Part shown: one piece after another, positions 8,042 to 15,932 of the stretch
Layout: each line of letters starts with the position of its first letter
Numbering within the stretch: position 1 is the first letter of the stretch
Source of the DNA: Phycisphaerales bacterium JB040
Lineage (GTDB): Bacteria > Planctomycetota > Phycisphaerae > Phycisphaerales > UBA1924
Assembly: GCA_043101615.1 (NCBI GenBank)
Contig: JBICID010000101.1
Location: 16,206-80,205 of the forward strand
Direction of reading: 5' to 3'
Length of the DNA stretch: 64,000 bases
Program-made: the position numbers and the translations under genes
The notes under the pieces: generated by a model
What the model was told of the DNA's origin: nothing
What the model saw: the letters and a program-made list of their open reading frames with translations, nothing else
Database searches by the model: none

Positions 8042-8400
8042 GCGTGGGGAACGGGTACGAAAGTGAGTGTTCAGGCGTGCGCCGGGGGTTCGGGATCGTG
8101 CGAAGGCGTGCGCGCCGGGAGCGAAACTTGAGATTTTGGGCGTGCGCATCGTTGCGTGGTCGCCCGGGGGGGTCGGGCTGGGGCCGCAGAAATTCGCACA
8201 AAGTGTTGAAATCCGTGCCTGAAACTTGATCCGGACCCGTCCGCAAGCCGACACACGCGCTGTCCGAGAACGCGCCGGCGCAGTGCCGGCACGGTCGGAC
8301 GCCGTCGGCTCTCATTGGGAGAGCCGGGACACCACCGCCCGGGGCGAGCCCGGGCATCGAGGGAGCCGAGGCATCGCGCCCGGCCCAATGGAGTATTCCG

Positions 8401-8862
8401 ATGGCAACTCGCAAGACCACCCACGCCCGCACCGCTTCCAAGCGAACCACCGGTCGCAAGACCACGGCGAAGAAACCCGCCGCCCGCAAGAGCACCCGCA
8501 AGGCCACCACCGGTCGCAAGACCACCGCCAAGAAGCCCGCCGCCAAGCGGACCACGGCGAAGAAGTCCACCACCCGCAAGCCCGCGGCCAAGAAGAGCAC
8601 CACCGCTCGCAAGCCCGCCGCCAAGCGCACCACCGCCAAGAAGGCCACCACCGGTCGCAAGACCGCCGCCAAGCGGACGACCGCCAAGCGGACCACGGCC
8701 AAGAAGAGCACGGGCCGCACGACCGCCGCCCGCAAGACCAGCGCCCGCAAGCCCGCCGCCAAGCGGACGACCAACAGCAAGACCAACTCCCGCACCGTCG
8801 TGGGCCGCATCGGCCCGCGCAAGAGCAACGCCCGCACGTCCTCGCGTCGTCGCGCCGCGTGA
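8401..8862 (+). CDS. histone H1-like, lysine/alanine/threonine-rich repetitive DNA-binding protein
   Basis: 153 aa made of about a dozen T-T-x-R-K-P-A-A-K-(K/R)-like repeats. GGAG lies 10 nt upstream. A strong intrinsic terminator follows immediately downstream. Confidence 0.7.
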   Translation: MATRKTTHARTASKRTTGRKTTAKKPAARKSTRKATTGRKTTAKKPAAKRTTAKKSTTRKPAAKKSTTARKPAAKRTTAKKATTGRKTAAKRTTAKRTTAKKSTGRTTAARKTSARKPAAKRTTNSKTNSRTVVGRIGPRKSNARTSSRRRAA

Positions 8863-8887
8863 TCGCTCAGCCGGTCTGAACCACGAA

Positions 8888-8918
8888 CGCCCGGGGCCTG
8901 ACGGCCGCGGGCGTTTTT
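8888..8918 (+). terminator. rho-independent terminator of the histone-like gene
   Basis: cgcccggggcc-tgac-ggccgcgggcg forms an 11-bp stem with one mismatch, followed by TTTTT (8914-8918). Confidence 0.8.
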
Positions 8919-8978
8919 CATGCGCGAGGGCGGTTCGGGGGAGCGTGGCAGGAGGCGAGGGGGGCGGTGGAGGGGGGG

Positions 8979-11666
8979 TCAGGGGGTGGCGGGGGAGGCG
9001 GAGGCGTCCCGGGGTCGGGTGACGACCTGGGCGCTCCCGTTCAGGCCGGGTCGGGCGTGCCCCTGTGTCTCGGGTGTGATGCCCAGGGTCGCCAGGTGGG
9101 TGTGCCAGGCCTCGGTGTGCACCTGCCAGAAGTGCTCGAAGGAGTTGGCGAGGCTGAACTGCTGGATGTAGTGGTGGGCGGCCAGGCCCATCGCCTTGCG
9201 CCGGTCGTGGTCGCAGATGAGGTCGGTCAGGGTCGAGACCCAGGCCTCGTCGTCGTCGTGGTCGAGCACGTAGCCGGAGCGTCCGTGCTCGACGATCTCC
9301 TTGGGCCCGCCGACGTTGGTGACCACCGCGGGCAGCCCGGAGCCCTGGGACTCCATGACGACCTGCCCGAGTGTGTCGGTGGTGGAGGGGAAGGCGAAGA
9401 GGTCGCACCCGGCGTAGATGGAGCTGAGCTCCTCGCCGTGCCGGAAGCCCAGGAAGTGGACCCCCATTCCCTTGAGCTCCCGGGTCATGGTCTGGCGGTA
9501 GGGCCCGTCGCCGACGACGACGAGCTCGGCCTGGACGCCCCGATGGGCGGCGTTCTCGCGCACGCGCGGCCAGATCCGCGCGAGCATGGGCAGGTTCTTC
9601 TCGACGCTGACCCGCCCGCAGTAGATGACCTTGACGGTGGCGGGGTCGAGCCCGAGGCGGGGCCAGAGGCTCTCGTCTCGGAAGCGCGGGTGGAAGACCT
9701 CTGCGTCGAAGCCGGGCATGAGGTGCACGATCCGGTCGCGGTTCATGCCCAGGTTGGCCAGCGAGGTGACGTAGTCGTCCGAGCGTGTGAAGATGGTGGC
9801 GAAGGGCTTGTAGAAGCCCCGCATGAACTTCTCGCAGATCTTGGTGAGGGTGTGGTCCTCGAAGAGTCGCTCGATGTAGGCGGGGAAGTCGGTGTGGTAG
9901 ACGCCCAGGACTGGCACCCTGAGCATCTTGGCGGCCAGGAAGCCGATGCAGCCGACGGGGCCCGGGGTCGAGATGTGGATGACGTCGGGCTTGTGTCGCT
10001 CGACGTGGCTCATGATCCGCATGATCGGGGGCAGGGCGAGGTCCAGGTCGTCGTACTTGGGCATCTTCATCGCGAAGACGGGCTTGAAGTTCGTGATGTT
10101 GGGGGCGTCGGGGCACTCGAGCGGGGAGGAGGTGATGACCTCCAGGTCGCGCCCGGAGGCGTGGGCCCGCTCGGCGACGTTCTGGATGAAGCGGGACACG
10201 CCGTTGACGTCCGCGAGCGTGTCGGTGAACAGGCTGATCTTCATGGGTCGCTCCAGGACGCTGACCCGGCTTCCGGGCGCGGAGGTCTCGTGCTCGAACC
10301 GGTCGAGGAACTGGCGTTCCTTGTTCTGGTAGAACAGGCTGAGCAGGTAGGGGAGCTGGGCGAACTGCAGCATCGCGTAGCTCACCAGGTACTCTGAGAT
10401 CTTGCCGGCGTTGCGCTTGCGCAGGGCCTTCTTGGCGCTGGGGGCCATCGAGCGCGACAGCGCGTCGGTCAGGTCCTGCATGAAGGCCTGCATGTCGTCG
10501 TGCTGGCTGACCGCGGCCCCGTCGACCCAGGTGTCCGGGTTCAGGCGGTCCTTGAGGGCGGGGTAGCGTTCCAGGATCTCGGGCAGGTCGTCCCGGAGTG
10601 CGCGGACGATGGGGAGCGACTTCTTTTTCTTGCCCAGCCAGACCTTCTGGGCGACCTTGTAGGCCGCGACCCGCTTCTTGCTGGGCGACTCCATGTGCAC
10701 GCCGAAGAAGCGGAGCAGCTTGGCGGAGACGTACTTGCCCACGGGTGAGCGTTTGCGGGTGAGGTGTCGCCCGAAGTAGTTGGCCCCGACGGTCGAGATC
10801 TGGTGGGCCAGCAGGGCGGAGTGCCCGCCCAGCCCCTCGGAGCGGCTCTCTCCCCCGGCCATCACGCGCCGCATGAAGTCGTGGGGGTTGGTCAGCACGC
10901 CCCCGGGCGTGTCCAGCTCGGTCCAGGTGCGCCCGATGTTGAGCAGGGCGTGGTCGTCGGAGCCGCCGGTGATGGCCTTGATCCAGGGGCGGTCGTGGCG
11001 TGCCCGCAACGCGTGCTTGGCCTCGAGCGCCTCGACCTGCTCGCGGTCCAGGTCGCTCACGAAGCGGTGGATCGCCCGGTTGAGGTGGTCCGAGTGGGCC
11101 CCGTTGATGCACTCGAAGCCCTTGAACAGCAGCACGCACCGCTCGACGTGCCACCGGGTCAGGCGCCCGTTCTGGATGTACAGCGGGTGGGCGAACGAGT
11201 GCGGGAGGGCGTTCTCCTCCAGCCAGTCCGCGAAGGCGTAGACGTCGGAGCGGAGGCTGTCGCGGTCGATCTGGTCGGCCAGGTCCGGTGTCAGCCCCCA
11301 GACCAAGACGTGCAGCAGGCACTTGTCCTCGGGGAAGCGGACGGAGACCTCCTGGCCGACGATGAAGCGTTCGAAGCCGCGGTCGACCAGCTCCATCGCC
11401 CCGGCGATGGTGTCGTGGTCGGTGATGGTGACCAGGTCCATCCCGCGCGCCACGGCCTGGTCGTACACCTGCTCCGGCTCGGAGTAGCACTCCGGGCAGC
11501 CGATGACCCCGGCCGCGGCCATGACGGGCTTGTCCGAGGCCTTGGAGTGGCAGTGGGTGTCGAGGCGGGTGATCAGGCCGTCGGGCGTGGGGGCGTCGGG
11601 TCCGCCCCCTGTGCGGGTTCGGGCGGGCGCGTCTCCGTTCTGTGTCGCGTGCTGGTCGCGTGTCAT
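8979..11666 (-). CDS. PHP (polymerase/histidinol-phosphatase-like) domain fused to a GT4-type glycosyltransferase
   Basis: The N-terminus has DTHCHSKASD...ITDHD (PHP metal motifs). The C-terminal half (KISLFTDTLADVNGVSRFIQN...GVYHTDFP...FPSTTDTLGQVVMESQGSGLP) is GT4/GT-B-like. I chose the start at MTRDQ (cat 11664-11666) because GAGGAG lies upstream. An alternative start is at 11738. Confidence 0.85.
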   Translation of the reverse strand: MTRDQHATQNGDAPARTRTGGGPDAPTPDGLITRLDTHCHSKASDKPVMAAAGVIGCPECYSEPEQVYDQAVARGMDLVTITDHDTIAGAMELVDRGFERFIVGQEVSVRFPEDKCLLHVLVWGLTPDLADQIDRDSLRSDVYAFADWLEENALPHSFAHPLYIQNGRLTRWHVERCVLLFKGFECINGAHSDHLNRAIHRFVSDLDREQVEALEAKHALRARHDRPWIKAITGGSDDHALLNIGRTWTELDTPGGVLTNPHDFMRRVMAGGESRSEGLGGHSALLAHQISTVGANYFGRHLTRKRSPVGKYVSAKLLRFFGVHMESPSKKRVAAYKVAQKVWLGKKKKSLPIVRALRDDLPEILERYPALKDRLNPDTWVDGAAVSQHDDMQAFMQDLTDALSRSMAPSAKKALRKRNAGKISEYLVSYAMLQFAQLPYLLSLFYQNKERQFLDRFEHETSAPGSRVSVLERPMKISLFTDTLADVNGVSRFIQNVAERAHASGRDLEVITSSPLECPDAPNITNFKPVFAMKMPKYDDLDLALPPIMRIMSHVERHKPDVIHISTPGPVGCIGFLAAKMLRVPVLGVYHTDFPAYIERLFEDHTLTKICEKFMRGFYKPFATIFTRSDDYVTSLANLGMNRDRIVHLMPGFDAEVFHPRFRDESLWPRLGLDPATVKVIYCGRVSVEKNLPMLARIWPRVRENAAHRGVQAELVVVGDGPYRQTMTRELKGMGVHFLGFRHGEELSSIYAGCDLFAFPSTTDTLGQVVMESQGSGLPAVVTNVGGPKEIVEHGRSGYVLDHDDDEAWVSTLTDLICDHDRRKAMGLAAHHYIQQFSLANSFEHFWQVHTEAWHTHLATLGITPETQGHARPGLNGSAQVVTRPRDASASPATP

Positions 11667-11890
11667 CTGGCCATCTCCTCGGCCTGCACCCCGGCGGAGC
11701 GGAGATCGGGCGTCCTGCCCGATGCGTGGCTGCCGCAAGGGTGGGAACGGATGTCTTGCGCCGGCCAGAGTTTATCCGGCGCACCGCCCCGGGCCGTGCG
11801 GCGCCGTGGCGTGTCCCCGATTTCACCGTTCTTTGACAGACCGGGCTGACCGTTTCATCGCGTGTTCTCGGACGGGCGCTCCGGGGGCCC

Positions 11891-11926
11891 AAAAAAACCC
11901 CGCGCCGGGGGGTCACCGGCGCGGGG
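11891..11926 (-). terminator. strong rho-independent terminator on the minus strand, with no CDS upstream of it
   Basis: ccccgcgccgg/ccggcgcgggg forms an 11-bp perfect stem (11898-11908 with 11916-11926) with a 7-nt loop. On the plus strand it is preceded by A7 (11891-11897), which is U7 following the hairpin on the minus strand. Confidence 0.75.
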
Positions 11927-12198
11927 GCATGCAGGGGCAGGCCGCGGGGTCGGGCGGTGGCGACTCCAACCCGACTCCCCGATCCGATGCGGCGAGCCCA
12001 CGGAACTGCGGGCCAAGGGTGCGTTGCGGATCGCGCCGCGACGAACGAGGGGCGGGGGAGGACTGGGGCCCCGGTCGGGCTGTGCGGGCTGGGCAAGGCC
12101 CCGCCCGGTTCCGGGGCCCGGTCGAGGGCGGAGGAGCGACTTCGCGGACCGAGCGTGCCTGCGCGGCCCGGGGGTGGCGGCGTGGGTAGCCTTGCCGG

Positions 12199-12909
12199 AT
12201 GGACCTCCGAGTGATCTCGATCGGCGCCCTCGCGGCTCACCCGTTGCGCAACGAACGCGGCTCCGTGCGCACGGGGCACGCCACCACCAGCCTGGTGCGG
12301 GCCGGGGACGCGGTGATCCTGGTGGACCCGGGGCTGCCCGGGCCAGCGATCGAGGCCCGCCTGGGCGAGCGGGTGGGGCTGAAGCCGTCTGACATCACGC
12401 ACGTGTTCCTGACGAGCTTTCACCCGGAGTGCCGTCGCGGGCTCGGGATCTTCGACAAGGCCGAGTGGCTGCTGAGCGAGCGAGAGCGGGAGGGCGTGGG
12501 GGTGCCGCTGGCGCAGTCGCTGGCGAGGCTGCACGAGAGCGTGGAGGCAGCGAAGCATGCCGGTGAGGCCCCGCCCGAGGACCACGCGCTGATGAGCGAG
12601 GTGGTGCGGACGGACATCGCGGTGCTGCAGAAGTGTCGGGCGGCGCCGGACTCGCTGGCGCCGGGGGTGGACCTGTTCCCGCTGCCGGGCGTCACGCCCG
12701 GGCTGTGCGGGCTGCTGCTGGCCGAGCCGACACGGACGGTGCTGATCTGCGGCGACGCGATCCCGACCGTGGAGCACCTCGAGCAGGGCAAGGTGCTGCC
12801 CGACACCGACGACCGCGAGCAGGCGCAGGAGAGCTTCAAGGAAGCGATCGAGATCGCGGACGTGCTCGTGCTCGGGCGGGACAACTGGGTGGCGAACAAG
12901 ACGCGGTGA
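12199..12909 (+). CDS. MBL-fold-like protein with a degenerate metal motif
   Basis: The layout resembles metallo-beta-lactamase fold proteins (VILVDPG...HVFLTSFHPECRRG...ICGDAIP). The canonical HxHxDH is replaced by SFHPECRR. This is a weak homology call made by eye. Confidence 0.55.
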   Translation: MDLRVISIGALAAHPLRNERGSVRTGHATTSLVRAGDAVILVDPGLPGPAIEARLGERVGLKPSDITHVFLTSFHPECRRGLGIFDKAEWLLSEREREGVGVPLAQSLARLHESVEAAKHAGEAPPEDHALMSEVVRTDIAVLQKCRAAPDSLAPGVDLFPLPGVTPGLCGLLLAEPTRTVLICGDAIPTVEHLEQGKVLPDTDDREQAQESFKEAIEIADVLVLGRDNWVANKTR

Positions 12910-12910
12910 G

Positions 12911-13096
12911 GAAAGACGGGTACGCGGAGGCGCGGAGTGAAGACGCGGAGACGCAGAGAAAGAAAGTACGGGCCTGAACGCGGAGTTCGCGCTCGGGGCT
13001 AGTAAAGAAAAACTGTCTCTCTCCGCGCCCTCCGCGTTCATGCCTGTCTTTCTCTGCGCCTCTGCGGTCCTCCGCGCCTCCGCGTACGGGTCTTTC
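12911..13096. repeat. about 186-bp imperfect inverted repeat (palindromic intergenic element) built from gcgcggag-like words
   Basis: The left arm is 12911-12985 (gaaagacgggtacgcggaggcgcggag...). The right arm is 13030-13096 (...ctccgcgcctccgcgtacgggtctttc) and is its imperfect reverse complement. The central loop carries gcgctcggggctagta, which recurs at 16110-16125. Confidence 0.8.
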
Positions 13097-13124
13097 TGGC
13101 TTTCCTTGTTGCTACGCTGGATCC

Positions 13125-15932
13125 ATGCCCGAAGAGTTTGCTGGCATCCGGTTCGGGGGGACGCTGCGTGACAACCAGGAGCGGGCCGCGGCGGCCATCC
13201 GTAAGCAGCTCGCGCGCGGGGAACGGCGTCTGCACATCGTCGCGCCGCCGGGGTCGGGCAAGACGGTGCTCGGGCTGTACGTGTGGGCGGAGTTGATGCG
13301 AACGCCCGCGGCGGTGCTGAGCCCGACGTCGGCGATCCAGAGCCAGTGGCTGAGCCGTGCGTCGCTGTTCGGGGTGGAGCGTCGTGACGAGCGTCTGAGC
13401 GACGATCCCGGGCGTCCGGGGCTGCTGACCTCGCTGACGTATCAGGCCGTGACGATGCCGGCGCGGGCCGACGAGGAGCTGGATCACGCGGCCCGGTCGC
13501 TGTGGATCGAGACGCTGGTCGCCGACGGGCACGCCGACGATCCGGACGAGGCGGCGGTGTGGGTTGATGACCTGCGCGCGCGCAACCCGGCGTACCACGA
13601 CAAGCGCCTGGCGTCGTACCGCAGGAAGGTGACCGAGGCCCGGACGTACGCGGGCGAGGCGACGAGCACGCTGCACGCGGGCGCGCTCGACGCGATCCGT
13701 CGCCTGCGCGAGCGCGGCGTGGGGCTGGTGATCCTGGACGAGTGCCACCACCTGCTGGGGCACTGGGGGCGTGTGCTGGCCGACGCGCACGACCTGCTCG
13801 ACGGGCCGGTGGTGCTGGGGCTGACCGCGACGCCGCCGGACGAGCGTGGGCGGGACGAGCGGGACACGGCCCGGTACGCCGAGTTCCTGGGTGAGGTGGA
13901 CTTCGAGGTGCCGATCCCGGCGGTGGTGAAGGAGGGGCACCTGGCGCCGTACCAGGACCTGGTGCACTTCGTGCGTCCGACGCCGGACGAGCTGGAGTTC
14001 GTGGCCGGGGCGGACCGTGCCTTGCATGAGCTGGTGGAGGAATTGTGCGCACACAGAGAGCAACCAGCAGTGGAGTCCGGGCGGGTGGCTTCCCTGCCCG
14101 AGTGGCTGGCGGAGACGCTGGCGACTCGCCGCCTGCCGACGGGTACTGCCAAGACATGGAACGCGTTTGCGCGTCGGGACGAGACGCTGGCGTGGGCGGG
14201 GCCGCTGTTCCTGCATCGGCGGGGGGTTGCGATCCCGGAGGGCGTGCCGTCGCCGGACGCGGGGACGCTGGCGGACCCGCCGCCCGAGGACGCGGTGGCG
14301 GTGGCGGTGCTGGACCGGTACGTGCGTCACGCGCTGCGTCGGAGCGCCTCGCCCGAGGACCACGCGCTTGCGGAGCGGGTGGTGGACCGGCTGCGGCTGC
14401 TGGGGGTGCAGATCACGGAGACGGGGTCGAGGCCGTGCGCGTCGCCGGTGGGGCGTGTGCTCGCGTACTCGAAGGCGAAGGCCGCGGGGGTGGTGGAGGT
14501 GCTGAAGGCGGAGCGGCGGACCTTGGGCGAGTCGATCCGGGCGGTGGTGGTGACGGACTTTGAGCGCACGAGCGCTCAACTCGGCGCGGCCGGTGAGGTG
14601 GCGGACGAGACCACGGGCGGGGCGATCGCGGTGTTTCGGGCGCTGCTGAGCGATGAGGAGACGGACGCGCTGGACCCGGTGCTGGTGACGGGCAGCACCA
14701 TTCTGGTGGACGACGACCTGGTGGATCGGTTCCTGGGCGAGGCTCGGGCGTGGCTGGCGGAGCACGCGACCGGGGAGGTCACCCTTGAGGCGGAGATGAA
14801 CGAAGCGTTCGGCGTGGTCACGGGGCGTGGTGAGGGGTGGGGGCCGCGTTTGTACGTCGCGATGATCACGGCACTCTTTCAGGCGGGGGTCACGCGCTGC
14901 CTCGTCGGCACGCGCGGCTTGCTGGGCGAGGGCTGGGACGCGGCCAAGACCAACGTGCTGATCGACCTGACCGCGGTGACGACCTCGATGAGCGTGAATC
15001 AATTGCGCGGGCGGTCGATCCGGCTCGACCCGGAGCTGCCGGGCAAGGTGGCGAACAACTGGGACGTCATCTGCACGGCCGACGAGTTCGCCCGCGGGCT
15101 GAGCGACTACGAGCGGTTCCGCGATCGGCACGCGACGTGGTACGGCGTGACCGAGGACGGGCAAGTGGAGAAGGGCGTGGGGCACGTGCACGCCTCGTTC
15201 ACGGACCTGGCCCCTGAGTCTTTGGCCGAACTCATGCCCGCGATCAACGCGGAGATGCTGGGTCGGGCGTCGCGGCGCGACGAGGCACGCGGGCGCTGGG
15301 ACATCGGCGGCCCGTTCGAGGGCGTGGCGACTCCGATGCTGGAGGCGAGGCCGAGCGTGGCGGCGGAAGGGCAGTCCGGCGGCTTCCCGGTGTTCCAGGG
15401 TCAGAAGGAGGCGTGGAGTGAAGTCAGCCTGACGCGCGCGGTGGCGAAGGCGGTGCTGGGGGCGCTTCGGGACGCGGGGCTGGTGGAGCGGGGTGACGAC
15501 ACGGGTTTGCAGGTCACGGCCCGCTCGGGCGGGTACGTGCGGGTGATGGCGGGGGACCTGGGCGAGGACGAGTGCTCGCTGTTCATGGCGTCGCTGGCGG
15601 AGGCGCTGGGGCCGATCGACCGACCGCGGTACATCATCGAGCGGGTGGTGCGGAACCGGCACGAAACGCTGCTGTCGAGGCTGTTGCCCGGGGTCATCGG
15701 GCGGTACTTCCGGCGGACGCGTCTGGAGGTGGCGATGCTGCACGCGGTGCCGAGTGCGCTGGCGCGGAACAAGGAGCTGGCGGACGTGTACCGGCGTCAT
15801 TGGGGGGCGCACGTCGGGCCGGGTCGCGTGCTGTACACGCACCGGGGCGAGGGGGAGAAGGTGCTGCACGAGGCGTTGGCGGGGGGGATGACGCCGCGTC
15901 ATGGGGCACGGGCGGGGGAGGTGTTCCGGTAG
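13125..15932 (+). CDS. superfamily-2 DEAD/DEAH-box helicase family protein (935 aa) with an uncharacterised C-terminal region
   Basis: Walker A APPGSGKT, motif II ILDECHH, motif III GLTATPP and motif VI QLRGRSIR. About 300 aa of the C-terminus have no motif I recognise. Confidence 0.9.
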   Translation: MPEEFAGIRFGGTLRDNQERAAAAIRKQLARGERRLHIVAPPGSGKTVLGLYVWAELMRTPAAVLSPTSAIQSQWLSRASLFGVERRDERLSDDPGRPGLLTSLTYQAVTMPARADEELDHAARSLWIETLVADGHADDPDEAAVWVDDLRARNPAYHDKRLASYRRKVTEARTYAGEATSTLHAGALDAIRRLRERGVGLVILDECHHLLGHWGRVLADAHDLLDGPVVLGLTATPPDERGRDERDTARYAEFLGEVDFEVPIPAVVKEGHLAPYQDLVHFVRPTPDELEFVAGADRALHELVEELCAHREQPAVESGRVASLPEWLAETLATRRLPTGTAKTWNAFARRDETLAWAGPLFLHRRGVAIPEGVPSPDAGTLADPPPEDAVAVAVLDRYVRHALRRSASPEDHALAERVVDRLRLLGVQITETGSRPCASPVGRVLAYSKAKAAGVVEVLKAERRTLGESIRAVVVTDFERTSAQLGAAGEVADETTGGAIAVFRALLSDEETDALDPVLVTGSTILVDDDLVDRFLGEARAWLAEHATGEVTLEAEMNEAFGVVTGRGEGWGPRLYVAMITALFQAGVTRCLVGTRGLLGEGWDAAKTNVLIDLTAVTTSMSVNQLRGRSIRLDPELPGKVANNWDVICTADEFARGLSDYERFRDRHATWYGVTEDGQVEKGVGHVHASFTDLAPESLAELMPAINAEMLGRASRRDEARGRWDIGGPFEGVATPMLEARPSVAAEGQSGGFPVFQGQKEAWSEVSLTRAVAKAVLGALRDAGLVERGDDTGLQVTARSGGYVRVMAGDLGEDECSLFMASLAEALGPIDRPRYIIERVVRNRHETLLSRLLPGVIGRYFRRTRLEVAMLHAVPSALARNKELADVYRRHWGAHVGPGRVLYTHRGEGEKVLHEALAGGMTPRHGARAGEVFR

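What the first reader, a model, noticed from the sequence alone, without database searches (positions are those of the whole stretch)
11891..12198. Strong orphan minus-strand terminator preceded by about 270 nt of highly structured, non-coding, C-rich RNA
- The 460-bp gap between the PHP-GT4 gene (minus strand) and the MBL-like gene (plus strand) contains an 11-bp perfect GC stem followed by U7 on the minus strand (11891-11926).
- No plausible CDS lies upstream of this terminator on that strand.
- The terminator also sits about 225 nt before the PHP-GT4 start codon.
- The minus-strand sequence between 11927 and about 12190 can form several long GC helices. Examples are GGGGAGUCGGG...CCCGACCCC, GGGCGGGGC-CUU-GCCCAGCCC, and a GACCGGGCCCCGG / CCGGGGCCCCAGUC pairing.
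- This looks like either an independent small RNA transcribed divergently from the MBL-like gene, or a terminator-type leader or riboswitch that controls read-through into the PHP-GT4 gene.
- I could not match it by eye to tmRNA, RNase P, SRP or 6S RNA.
Basis: seen in the sequence. Interest (0 to 1): 0.6.

Follow-up and report, generated by a model that had tools for sequence, protein, structure and literature searches.

The report
Conserved Phycisphaerales small RNA gene
The "orphan" terminator ends a short non-coding RNA gene of about 117 bases that has its own promoter, is conserved across the planctomycete order Phycisphaerales and is absent from Rfam; it is probably an ordinary kind of regulatory small RNA in a phylum where almost none are known.

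Summary
The minus-strand terminator is real: an 11-bp all-GC stem at 11926-11898 followed by U7 at 11897-11891. It is conserved, with compensatory changes in 8 of its 12 pairs across 42 distinct homologues.

It ends a single-copy non-coding unit. That unit was detected in 51 of 101 genomes of the same GTDB family and in four other families of the order Phycisphaerales. It was not detected outside the order, and nothing in Rfam 15 matches it.

The "270 nt of highly structured RNA" does not hold up:
- The fold is no better than shuffles (z = -1.33).
- The upstream two thirds reads as DNA-level signal. It has tandem CGCACAG-type repeats, a -35-like box, an 18-nt spacer that carries no information, and an extended -10 box, all at fixed spacing. 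In this genome there is also about 100 nt of non-conserved spacer.
- The RNA most likely starts near 12009 and is about 117 nt long.

It is not a leader of the PHP-GT4 gene. The downstream gene differs between genomes, is convergent in several, and has its own -10-like box.

No conserved ORF exists. Family members carry C/U-rich motifs that resemble the anti-Shine-Dalgarno sequence (CCCCUGC, and a terminator loop of GCCUCC or GACCCC). This suggests a trans-acting RNA that masks ribosome-binding sites.

The parts
12073..12096 (-). Conserved upstream block, TTGCCCAGCC-CGCACAG-CCCGACC. In the family it is a tandem direct repeat, consensus CcGCaCAG-cCgGCACAG-cCCGaCC, with units 10-11 nt apart. Read as a binding site for a transcription factor (inferred).
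   Evidence: The consensus comes from the CM alignment. The distance to the -35-like box is 50-53 nt in 31 of 50 loci, 41-42 nt in 5 and 61-62 nt in 7, that is, steps of about one helical turn. The distance to the divergent gene varies from about 17 to 108 nt.
12040..12045 (-). -35-like box, TTCGTC here. The family consensus is nTGGCc, and lower-GC members have TTGGCC, TTGGCA or TTGGAC.
   Evidence: In the position frequencies T is 0.89 and G 0.96. The next 11 spacer positions carry 0.0-0.2 bits each. The spacer to the -10 box was called as 18 nt in most of the 50 loci and 17 or 19 nt in the rest, though the scoring slightly favoured 18.
12016..12027 (-). Extended -10-like box, GCAACG-CACCCT. 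The family consensus is (G)AAT(C/T)G-(C/G)AnnnT.
   Evidence: The A at hexamer position 2 and the T at position 6 each have frequency 0.96. The upstream A, T and G have 0.74-0.86. The same motif scores high upstream of other likely genes in this genome, where an SD and a start codon follow 50-90 nt downstream.
11891..12009 (-). Predicted small RNA transcript, about 117 nt. The TSS is inferred at G 12009 (plus or minus 2), the 7th base after the -10 hexamer. The 3' end lies in the U-tract.
   Evidence: Promoter geometry. GCAG at the predicted +1 is shared with G001. The length from the -10 box to the terminator varies from 80 to 228 nt among homologues, whereas upstream spacings are fixed. There is no expression data.
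11997..12001 (-). GUGGG, the 5' strand of a predicted helix with CCUGC (11935-11931).
   Evidence: RNAalifold on 8 sequences of this clade pairs G(C/U)GGG with CCUGC in all 8. G000 has one one-sided change, C to U, which keeps the pair. Otherwise the columns are invariant, so this is weak evidence.
11946..11980 (-). Internal hairpin GGGGAGUCGGG ... CCCGACCCC, flanked by GCCGC (11993-11989) and GCGGC (11945-11941).
   Evidence: MFE fold. Read by eye from the pairwise alignment, G001 has GGGAGCC ... GGCUCCC at the same place, with changes on both strands. An outer helix with CG-to-UA changes is seen in the 8-sequence alignment.
11931..11937 (-). Conserved C-rich motif CCCCUGC. It is CCCUGC or CCCUGG in the family and lies 1-6 nt 5' of the terminator stem.
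   Evidence: It is nearly invariant in A3 and A4. It is present in 43 of 49 distinct homologues. The predicted unpaired probability is only 0.33, which equals the background.
11898..11926 (-). Terminator hairpin: stem 11926-11916 with 11908-11898, loop UGACCCC at 11915-11909.
   Evidence: Across the family 97.4% of cells are paired, 8 of 12 pairs change on both sides (39 cells), and 0 of 500 shuffles reach this. The loop holds CCUC in 32 of 49 members and GACCCC in the G000 clade. The mean unpaired probability of the loop motif is 0.88.
11891..11897 (-). U7 tract of the intrinsic terminator.
   Evidence: Most homologues have a T-rich tail, but it is weak in L015 and L057.
11769..11774 (-). Context: a -10-like box TAAACT for the PHP-GT4 gene itself, downstream of the terminator.
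   Evidence: GGATAAACT here corresponds to GGGTAGACT, GGATAGACT and GGCTAAACT at the equivalent place in L015, L057 and L019.
12187..12201 (+). Context: a -10-like box TAGCCT (12187-12192) 6 nt before the ATG (12199) of the MBL-like gene, which therefore looks leaderless.
   Evidence: TAGCCT, TAGCAT, TAGACT or TACAAT lies 6-8 nt before the ATG of MBL or coaD in G000, G001, L015, L057, L043, L025 and L064.

Best explanation
Window 12096-11891 (minus strand) is a complete small-RNA gene.

A sigma-70-type promoter drives a non-coding transcript of about 117 nt:
- The -35-like box is at 12045-12040.
- An 18-nt spacer follows.
- The extended -10 box is at 12027-12016.
- Tandem CGCACAG-type repeats at 12096-12073 lie upstream and probably bind a regulator.
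- The transcript starts near 12009 and ends at the intrinsic terminator 11926-11891.

The RNA has three parts:
- a lineage-variable 5' stem-loop domain;
- the conserved motif CCCCUGC;
- a terminator hairpin whose stem covaries and whose loop carries a conserved C-rich sequence. This is GCCUCC in most of the family and GACCCC in this clade, and both resemble the anti-Shine-Dalgarno core CCUCC.

It is an independent gene, not a leader of PHP-GT4.

The most likely action (inferred) is in trans. The exposed C-rich loop, and perhaps the other C/U-rich tracts, would pair with G-rich ribosome-binding sites of target mRNAs and block translation, as RsaE/RoxS and 6C-type sRNAs are thought to do.

What is shown: conservation, single copy, terminator covariation, fixed promoter geometry, and the absence of an ORF or an Rfam match. 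What is inferred: the transcription start, transcription itself, the regulator, the targets and the pairing mechanism.
For: - The terminator is present. It covaries: 97.4% of cells are paired, 8 of 12 pairs have changes on both sides, and 0 of 500 shuffles reach this.
- Model R1 finds one full-length match per genome in 51 of 101 genomes of the same family. It also finds matches in 9 genomes of four other families of the order. It finds none outside the order.
- The strict conserved 3' pattern (CCCUG plus the CCCGYG stem) has one real copy in G000.
- Spacings are fixed: repeats to -35 at about 52 nt, or 42 or 62 nt, and -35 to -10 mostly 18 nt. The spacer carries almost no information, and A2 and T6 of the -10 hexamer each have frequency 0.96. 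Everything 3' of the -10 box varies from 80 to 228 nt.
- Mean fold z-scores are -0.34 upstream, -0.85 for the RNA body and -3.9 for the terminator.
- The downstream gene is convergent or different in several loci, and PHP-GT4 has its own -10-like box.
- No conserved ORF exists.
- Nothing in Rfam matches, in the window or in 20 homologous loci.
- 6S, SRP and RNase P RNAs lie elsewhere in the genome.
- CCUC is found in the terminator loop of 32 of 49 members, and the loop motif has an unpaired probability of 0.88.
- C/U-rich pentamers average 3.2 per RNA against 1.8 in shuffles (p = 1e-9), while their complements are not enriched.
- For the kind of mechanism, see RsaE/RoxS C-rich regions pairing with SD sequences (PMC4409812).
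Against:
- The start site rests on a promoter motif inferred from these same sequences. In this genome the -35 box (TTCGTC) is a poor match.
- The consensus promoter scan found nothing in the region.
- G000's own copy has lost the CCUCC loop (it has GACCCC) and holds only one C/U-rich pentamer, which is below the shuffle mean.
- CCCCUGC is predicted to be mostly paired (unpaired probability 0.33). In this clade it pairs with G(C/U)GGG near the 5' end, so it may be structural rather than a seed.
- No target was identified. The test against the neighbouring PHP-GT4 5' region was uninformative.
- About half of the family genomes gave no match. In some loci the GT4 gene and coaD are only about 95 nt apart, so the RNA cannot lie between them there. 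The RNA is therefore not universal.
Confidence: 0.6

Rival explanations
1. Long-RNA reading: the whole conserved block from the tandem repeats to the terminator (12096-11891, about 205 nt or more) is transcribed. The 'promoter' boxes would then be RNA motifs, for example a hairpin loop CUGGCC and a single-stranded AUCGCA.
For: - In several homologues the CUGGCC-type box sits in the loop of a hairpin whose stem sequence differs between genomes (CACGCC/GGCGUG, CGCUCG/CGAGCG, GCGUCG/CGACGC).
- The mean z-score of the upstream part is slightly negative (-0.34, p = 0.04).
- GCACA-like words occur three times, twice in the repeats and once in the -10 region.
Against: - Fixed lengths with a spacer that carries no information are typical of promoters, not of RNA helices.
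- The RNA-like 3' part varies freely in length.
- In L043-type loci the repeats begin about 20 nt from the coaD ATG and next to its -10 box. A promoter for a long RNA would then have to lie inside coaD.
- Lower-GC members show near-canonical TTGGCA-N17-GACATT.
- Hairpins of this kind are common by chance at 75% GC.
Confidence: 0.15
2. Cis-acting leader, attenuator or riboswitch: transcription from the upstream promoter reads into PHP-GT4 unless the hairpin terminates it, under control of a ligand or protein.
For: - A PHP-GT4 or GT4 gene follows on the same strand in 18 of 29 loci found by the model.
- In L010, which lacks the RNA, similar tandem repeats lie directly upstream of the PHP gene.
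Against: - The downstream gene is convergent in L017 and in L043, L046, L047 and L077. Other genes intervene in L108, L110, L111 and L113-L115.
- The distance from the terminator to the start codon runs from about 45 to over 1000 nt.
- A conserved -10-like box lies after the terminator.
- No conserved alternative (antiterminator) pairing was found.
- No riboswitch or leader family matches at E <= 1.
Confidence: 0.08
3. A small RNA that acts through a protein rather than by pairing: the nearly invariant stem base GCCCCGYG, the loop and CCCUGC would form a binding site for a protein (sequestration or scaffold).
For: - Several stem pairs are invariant in all 42 sequences (CG in 42 of 42), beyond what a terminator needs.
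- CCCCUGC is conserved although it is predicted to be paired.
- More distant members read CCCUGGAUCGG.
Against: - No candidate partner is encoded next to it. The neighbours are coaD, an MBL-fold protein and a glycosyltransferase.
- Only one or two motif copies occur per RNA, unlike known sponge RNAs.
Confidence: 0.12
4. A small protein gene: in this genome UUG (11968) to UGA (in the loop, 11914-11912) would give the 18-aa peptide MESPPPDPAACPCMPPRR, preceded by GGGGAG.
For: An SD-like GGGGAG lies 5 nt before the UUG, and the frame stays open up to the loop.
Against: - The frame, the start and the stop are not conserved even in G001.
- In the 47 homologues with the motif, its frame and the resulting peptides differ.
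- Indels between G000 and G001 are not multiples of three.
Confidence: 0.03

Closest known systems
RsaE / RoxS of Firmicutes (Rfam RsaE)
   Same: It is a stand-alone small RNA with its own regulated promoter and an intrinsic terminator. It has several conserved C-rich tracts, one of them in a hairpin loop, which can pair with G-rich Shine-Dalgarno regions (PMC4409812). It is single-copy and conserved over a wide clade.
   Different: There is no sequence or model match. The phylum is different. In this family the best-conserved C-rich motif sits in the terminator loop itself. The 5' domain varies greatly in length (80-228 nt from the -10 box to the end). No target or regulator is known.
6C RNA of Actinobacteria (Rfam RF01066)
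   Same: It comes from a high-GC organism, is about 100 nt long, and shows C-rich hairpin loops that are thought to pair with G-rich sites (my own knowledge of the family).
   Different: 6C has two hairpins, each with a loop of at least six C. Here only the terminator loop (ACCCCCC in G000, GCCUCC elsewhere) is of that type. There is no Rfam match at E <= 1.
Alpha-r14 / 'cuckoo' sRNAs (CcsR1-4, NfeR1) of Alphaproteobacteria
   Same: Hairpin loops carry CCUCC-type anti-SD motifs, each copy has its own promoter and terminator, and the family is clade-restricted (my own knowledge; also named in earlier notes of this scan).
   Different: Those are multicopy and often tandem. This one is single-copy and syntenic with coaD. 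There is no model match.
Terminator-type riboswitches and leaders
   Same: A strong intrinsic terminator lies in a long 5' intergenic region upstream of a gene on the same strand.
   Different: The downstream gene is not conserved, it has its own -10-like box, and no aptamer-like conserved core or antiterminator was found.

Membership tests
Any Rfam 15 family (including 6C, RsaE, ar14, riboswitches, 6S, SRP, tmRNA, RNase P) | A match to the family covariance model. | tested here: not met
   There is no match at E <= 1 in 11000-13000. None reaches the gathering score in the whole window. None is found at E <= 0.5 in 20 homologous loci.
6S / SRP / RNase P RNA (a divergent housekeeping RNA) | The genome lacks another copy of that RNA, so that this locus could be it. 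| tested here: not met
   A full-length 6S candidate lies at C101:82201-82385 (31.9 bits, syntenic in G001). SRP RNA is at C79:21090-21188 (54.1 bits). RNase P RNA is at C31:5187-5660 (184.8 bits).
Independent bacterial small-RNA gene | Its own terminator, conserved as a structure. | tested here: met
Independent bacterial small-RNA gene | Its own promoter at a fixed distance, and a position independent of the downstream gene. | tested here: met
   A promoter-like module with fixed spacing. Varying or convergent downstream genes. The promoter is inferred from sequence only.
Independent bacterial small-RNA gene | A discrete transcript is detected. | not testable with these tools
Independent bacterial small-RNA gene | Non-coding. 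| tested here: met
   There is no conserved frame, start, stop or peptide among 49 homologues.
Anti-Shine-Dalgarno-type (C-rich seed) sRNAs such as RsaE/RoxS, 6C, ar14 | Conserved, accessible C/U-rich motifs. | tested here: inconclusive
   For the family: CCUC is found in 32 of 49 terminator loops, the loop is 0.88 unpaired, and C/U pentamers number 3.2 against 1.8. In G000 itself the loop is GACCCC, there is only one such pentamer, and CCCCUGC is predicted to be paired.
Anti-Shine-Dalgarno-type (C-rich seed) sRNAs | Pairing with ribosome-binding sites of target mRNAs. | not tested
   No genome-wide comparative target prediction was run. The one neighbour test was uninformative.
Terminator-type riboswitch or attenuator | A constant position in the 5' leader of one gene family, with no promoter in between. 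| tested here: not met
Terminator-type riboswitch or attenuator | A conserved alternative (antiterminator) pairing or an aptamer core. | tested here: not met
   RNAalifold on 6, 8 and 16 sequences gives only the terminator plus clade-specific helices. The RNA body varies from 80 to 228 nt.

The most novel reading that the evidence does not exclude
This RNA may be one of several unrelated-looking small-RNA families in Phycisphaerales that all display anti-Shine-Dalgarno-like C/U-rich loops; earlier notes of this scan describe others next to nadD/coaD and in tandem arrays. Under that reading, mimicry of the 16S rRNA tail would be the main mode of riboregulation in this order. This single-copy member would be switched by a regulator bound to helically phased tandem repeats, in a control region it shares with the CoA-biosynthesis gene coaD.
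Probability: 0.25. Interest if true: 0.65.

Novelty: new member of a known kind. Interest (0 to 1): 0.5.

Why it matters
I found no described small RNAs for Planctomycetota in the paper library, and Rfam has no model for this one. An order-wide, single-copy sRNA gives an entry point into post-transcriptional control in this phylum, because it comes with a recognisable promoter, a probable regulator site and a covarying terminator. It also yields a working promoter consensus for high-GC Phycisphaerales (nTGGCc - 18 nt - AAT(C/T)G(C/G)AnnnT) and evidence for leaderless neighbouring genes. For annotation, it shows that the long intergenic region before PHP-GT4 is a gene and not a leader.

Tried and rejected
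- Rfam on the region, the window and 20 homologous loci gave nothing.
- A divergent 6S, SRP or RNase P RNA was rejected, because all three lie elsewhere.
- The whole-region fold is not better than shuffles.
- A sigma-54 reading of CTGGC...TCGCA was rejected. The GG-to-GC distance is 20 nt, not 11 (by eye).
- ECF, sigma-32 and sigma-28 consensus sequences, recalled from memory, did not fit.
- I scanned G000 for a regulon of the tandem repeat. CACAG-N-C(C/G)GA(A/C)C has 18 hits against about 15 expected, so there is no enrichment.
- The promoter matrix finds other plausible promoters but no clear class.
- A general helix between the RNA's 5' end and CCCCUGC was not supported. The mean duplex z-score is about 0 over 47 RNAs, and the helix is seen only in the G000/L015/L017 clade.
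- Pairing of the 3' module with PHP-GT4 5' regions was badly controlled (approximate start codons, long duplexes) and was discarded.
- The small-ORF reading was rejected.
- One order-wide search with 300 genomes failed.
- Look-ups of earlier findings by sequence found nothing alike.

Full report
**Observation**

Read on the minus strand, window 11926-11891 is CCCCGCGCCGG-UGACCCC-CCGGCGCGGGG-UUUUUUU. The terminator scan lists it with 11 pairs, all G-C. It is the only strong site of this kind in 10500-13500.

- a PHP plus GT4 glycosyltransferase gene on the minus strand;
- a metallo-beta-lactamase-fold gene on the plus strand, starting at 12199.

The likely PHP-GT4 start is ATG 11666, with GAGGAG 8 nt upstream. 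That is 225 nt beyond the U-tract.

The claim of exceptional structure fails. The 314-nt stretch folds at -162.9 kcal/mol against -155.8 +/- 5.4 for dinucleotide shuffles (z = -1.33). At 75-78% GC, long GC helices are expected by chance.

**Origin and known RNAs**

The window lies in a 3.57-Mb MAG. Relatives of the MBL-like protein are almost all labelled Phycisphaerales or Phycisphaerae, phylum Planctomycetota.

- Rfam 15 has no match at E <= 1 in 11000-13000 and none at gathering score in the window.
- The genome has a 6S candidate, an SRP RNA and an RNase P RNA elsewhere. The element is therefore not a divergent copy of one of these.

**Conservation**

- The same-genus genome G001 has the element at the same place, between PHP-GT4 and MBL. 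Identity is 73% and ends exactly at the U-tract, and the terminator stem carries a compensatory C-G to U-A change.
- Profile searches of loci fetched through the MBL protein found further copies. They are always on the strand opposite to MBL or coaD.
- Covariance model R1 gave one full-length hit per genome in 51 of 101 genomes of the same GTDB family.
- It gave hits in 9 genomes of four other families of the order.
- It gave none outside the order in a sample of 121 genomes of the class.
- In G000 the strict 3' pattern (CCCUG plus the CCCGYG stem) has only one genuine match.
- Twenty homologous loci have no Rfam match at E <= 0.5.

The RNA is not universal. Only about 20 of 76 MBL-linked loci hold it within 3 kb. 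In some genomes a GT4 gene and coaD are about 95 nt apart, which leaves no room for it. L010 has the PHP-MBL gap without it.

**Terminator**

Counts over 42 distinct sequences:

| Measure | Result |
|---|---|
| Cells forming standard pairs | 97.4% |
| Pairs with changes on both sides | 8 of 12 (39 cells) |
| Shuffles reaching the observed values | 0 of 500 |
| Paired cells when partners are slid by 1-3 columns | 40-48% |

The hairpin is therefore under selection as a structure.

**What lies upstream is mostly not RNA**

I aligned 50 loci on their motifs. The result shows four features:
- A tandem repeat block, consensus CcGCaCAG-cCgGCACAG-cCCGaCC.
- A box nTGGCc that lies 50-53 nt downstream of the start of the block in 31 loci, 41-42 nt in 5 and 61-62 nt in 7. 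These are steps of about one helical turn.
- A spacer called as 18 nt in most loci and 17 or 19 nt in the rest. My scoring slightly favoured 18.
- A box (G)AAT(C/T)G-(C/G)AnnnT.

Position frequencies fit a promoter:
- The T and G of the first box have frequencies 0.89 and 0.96.
- Eleven spacer positions carry 0.0-0.2 bits each.
- The A and T at hexamer positions 2 and 6 each have frequency 0.96.

Lower-GC members read almost canonically, for example TTGGCA-N17-GACATT and TTGGAC-N18-GACTCT. By contrast, the distance from this hexamer to the end of the terminator varies from 80 to 228 nt.

Two further points support the promoter reading:
- Mean fold z-scores are -0.34 for the upstream part, -0.85 for the body and -3.9 for the terminator.
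- In L043-type loci the repeat block begins about 20 nt from the coaD start codon and next to its -10 box. A promoter for a longer RNA would have to lie inside coaD.

I therefore read 12096-12016 as regulatory and promoter DNA. I place the start near G 12009, the seventh base after CACCCU. GCAG at that point is shared with G001. The RNA would be about 117 nt.

This step is an inference. The -35 box of G000 (TTCGTC) is weak, and the E. coli-style scan finds no promoter. The roughly 100 nt between the repeats and the MBL start (12097-12183) is poorly conserved even within the genus.

**Not a leader**

- A PHP-GT4 or GT4 gene follows on the same strand in 18 of 29 model-found loci, at distances from about 45 to over 1000 nt.
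- In L017 and in L043, L046, L047 and L077 the next gene is convergent and ends just beyond the hairpin.
- Between the terminator and PHP-GT4 lies a conserved -10-like box. It is GGATAAACT at 11777-11769 here, and GGGTAGACT, GGATAGACT and GGCTAAACT in L015, L057 and L019.
- The linkage that is kept is to the upstream divergent gene. Of the 29 loci, 23 have coaD, or MBL where coaD is absent, next to the element, nearly always divergent. L109 is one exception, where the RNA and coaD lie in tandem.

**Not coding**

The frame of the conserved motif, the starts, the stops and the peptides differ between homologues. The 18-codon frame in G000 is not kept in G001.

**The RNA itself**

Beyond the terminator, the conserved parts are CCCCUGC and the terminator loop.
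- CCCCUGC lies at 11937-11931. The family has CCCUGC or CCCUGG, and the motif is present in 43 of 49 members.
- The terminator loop holds CCUC, as GCCUCC or GCCUCA, in 32 of 49 members. The G000/L015/L017 clade has GACCCC.
- In the G000 clade, RNAalifold pairs G(C/U)GGG (12001-11997) with CCUGC (11935-11931). It adds a short helix with CG-to-UA changes around an inner hairpin.
- Across the whole family, no general pairing between the 5' end and this motif is seen.
- The loop motif is exposed, with unpaired probability 0.88. CCCUG is not, at 0.33 against a background of 0.38.
- C/U-rich pentamers of the anti-SD type average 3.2 per RNA against 1.8 in shuffles (p = 1e-9). Their complements are not enriched. 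G000's own copy has only one.
- Some members have a second CCUCC loop or a UUUCUCUCCC tract near the 5' end, for example L043, L025, L078 and L110.

**Mechanism**

The anatomy is that of a stand-alone regulatory sRNA with C-rich tracts:
- a regulated promoter;
- a variable 5' domain;
- conserved C-rich motifs, one displayed in the terminator loop;
- a U-tail.

RsaE/RoxS is the best-studied example. Its C-rich regions can pair with G-rich Shine-Dalgarno sequences and block initiation (PMC4409812). This organism uses such sites, for example GAGGAG before PHP-GT4 and GGAGG before other starts.

I put about 0.75 on 'independent conserved non-coding RNA gene', about 0.6 on the start near 12009, and about 0.35 on pairing at ribosome-binding sites. 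A protein-binding role is the main alternative at the level of mechanism. No target is known.

**Earlier notes of this scan**

These describe other Phycisphaerales sRNA candidates with anti-SD-like loops. One is a roughly 110-nt gene between nadD and coaD. It may be this family: L043-type members sit beside coaD and have two CCUC-type loops. I could not compare sequences. I treat these notes as leads only.

**Limits**

- The model includes the promoter region, and the large searches used stricter filters, so prevalence is a lower bound.
- A better model could not be calibrated.

**Verdict**

This is a real, conserved, previously uncatalogued small-RNA gene of an ordinary kind.

Noticed in passing
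just outside the window: G000:C101:82201-82385 (+), about 2 kb beyond window end: There is a full-length but sub-threshold 6S RNA match (31.9 bits; gathering score 46.4), syntenic in G001. A site matching the promoter matrix derived here lies inside its 5' part (CTGGCG-N18-GAGCCT at C101:82213). The real RNA may therefore start about 50 nt later than the Rfam alignment suggests.
   Followed up: partly
window 12187-12201 (+); L043, L025, L064 and others: The MBL-like gene, and coaD in relatives, has a -10-like box (TAGCCT, TAGACT or TACAAT) only 6-8 nt before the ATG and no Shine-Dalgarno sequence. These genes look leaderless.
   Followed up: partly
window 11819-11838 (-): A conserved A/T-rich block, TGTCAAAGAACGGTGAAATC, lies between the terminator and the PHP-GT4 -10-like box. 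L015 and L057 have TGTCAAGAAACCGTAAAAC and TGTCAAGAAATCATAAAAC. It may be a regulatory site for PHP-GT4.
   Followed up: no
L010 2725-3000 (-): A relative that lacks the small RNA still has CCCGGCACGCCCGGCACAAC-type tandem repeats directly upstream of its PHP gene. The repeat-binding regulator may therefore also control PHP-GT4.
   Followed up: no
window about 13052 (G000:C101:29257, +) and contigs C1, C16, C56, C76, C117: A dispersed repeat built from words such as CTCTGCG(T/G)CCTCCGCGCCTC(T/C)GCGTAC occurs on several contigs. One copy lies in the palindromic element after the MBL-like gene, which another first-stage note flagged.
   Followed up: partly
window 8979-11666 (-) and loci L030, L031, L033, L039, L040, L049, L098, L099, L103, L104: In many relatives only the GT4 half of the PHP-GT4 protein matches next to coaD. 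The PHP-GT4 fusion is therefore not universal in the order.
   Followed up: no
window 8071-14157 (-): A 2028-codon open frame runs across three real genes and the intergenic region. It is an artefact of the high GC content and not a gene.
   Followed up: no
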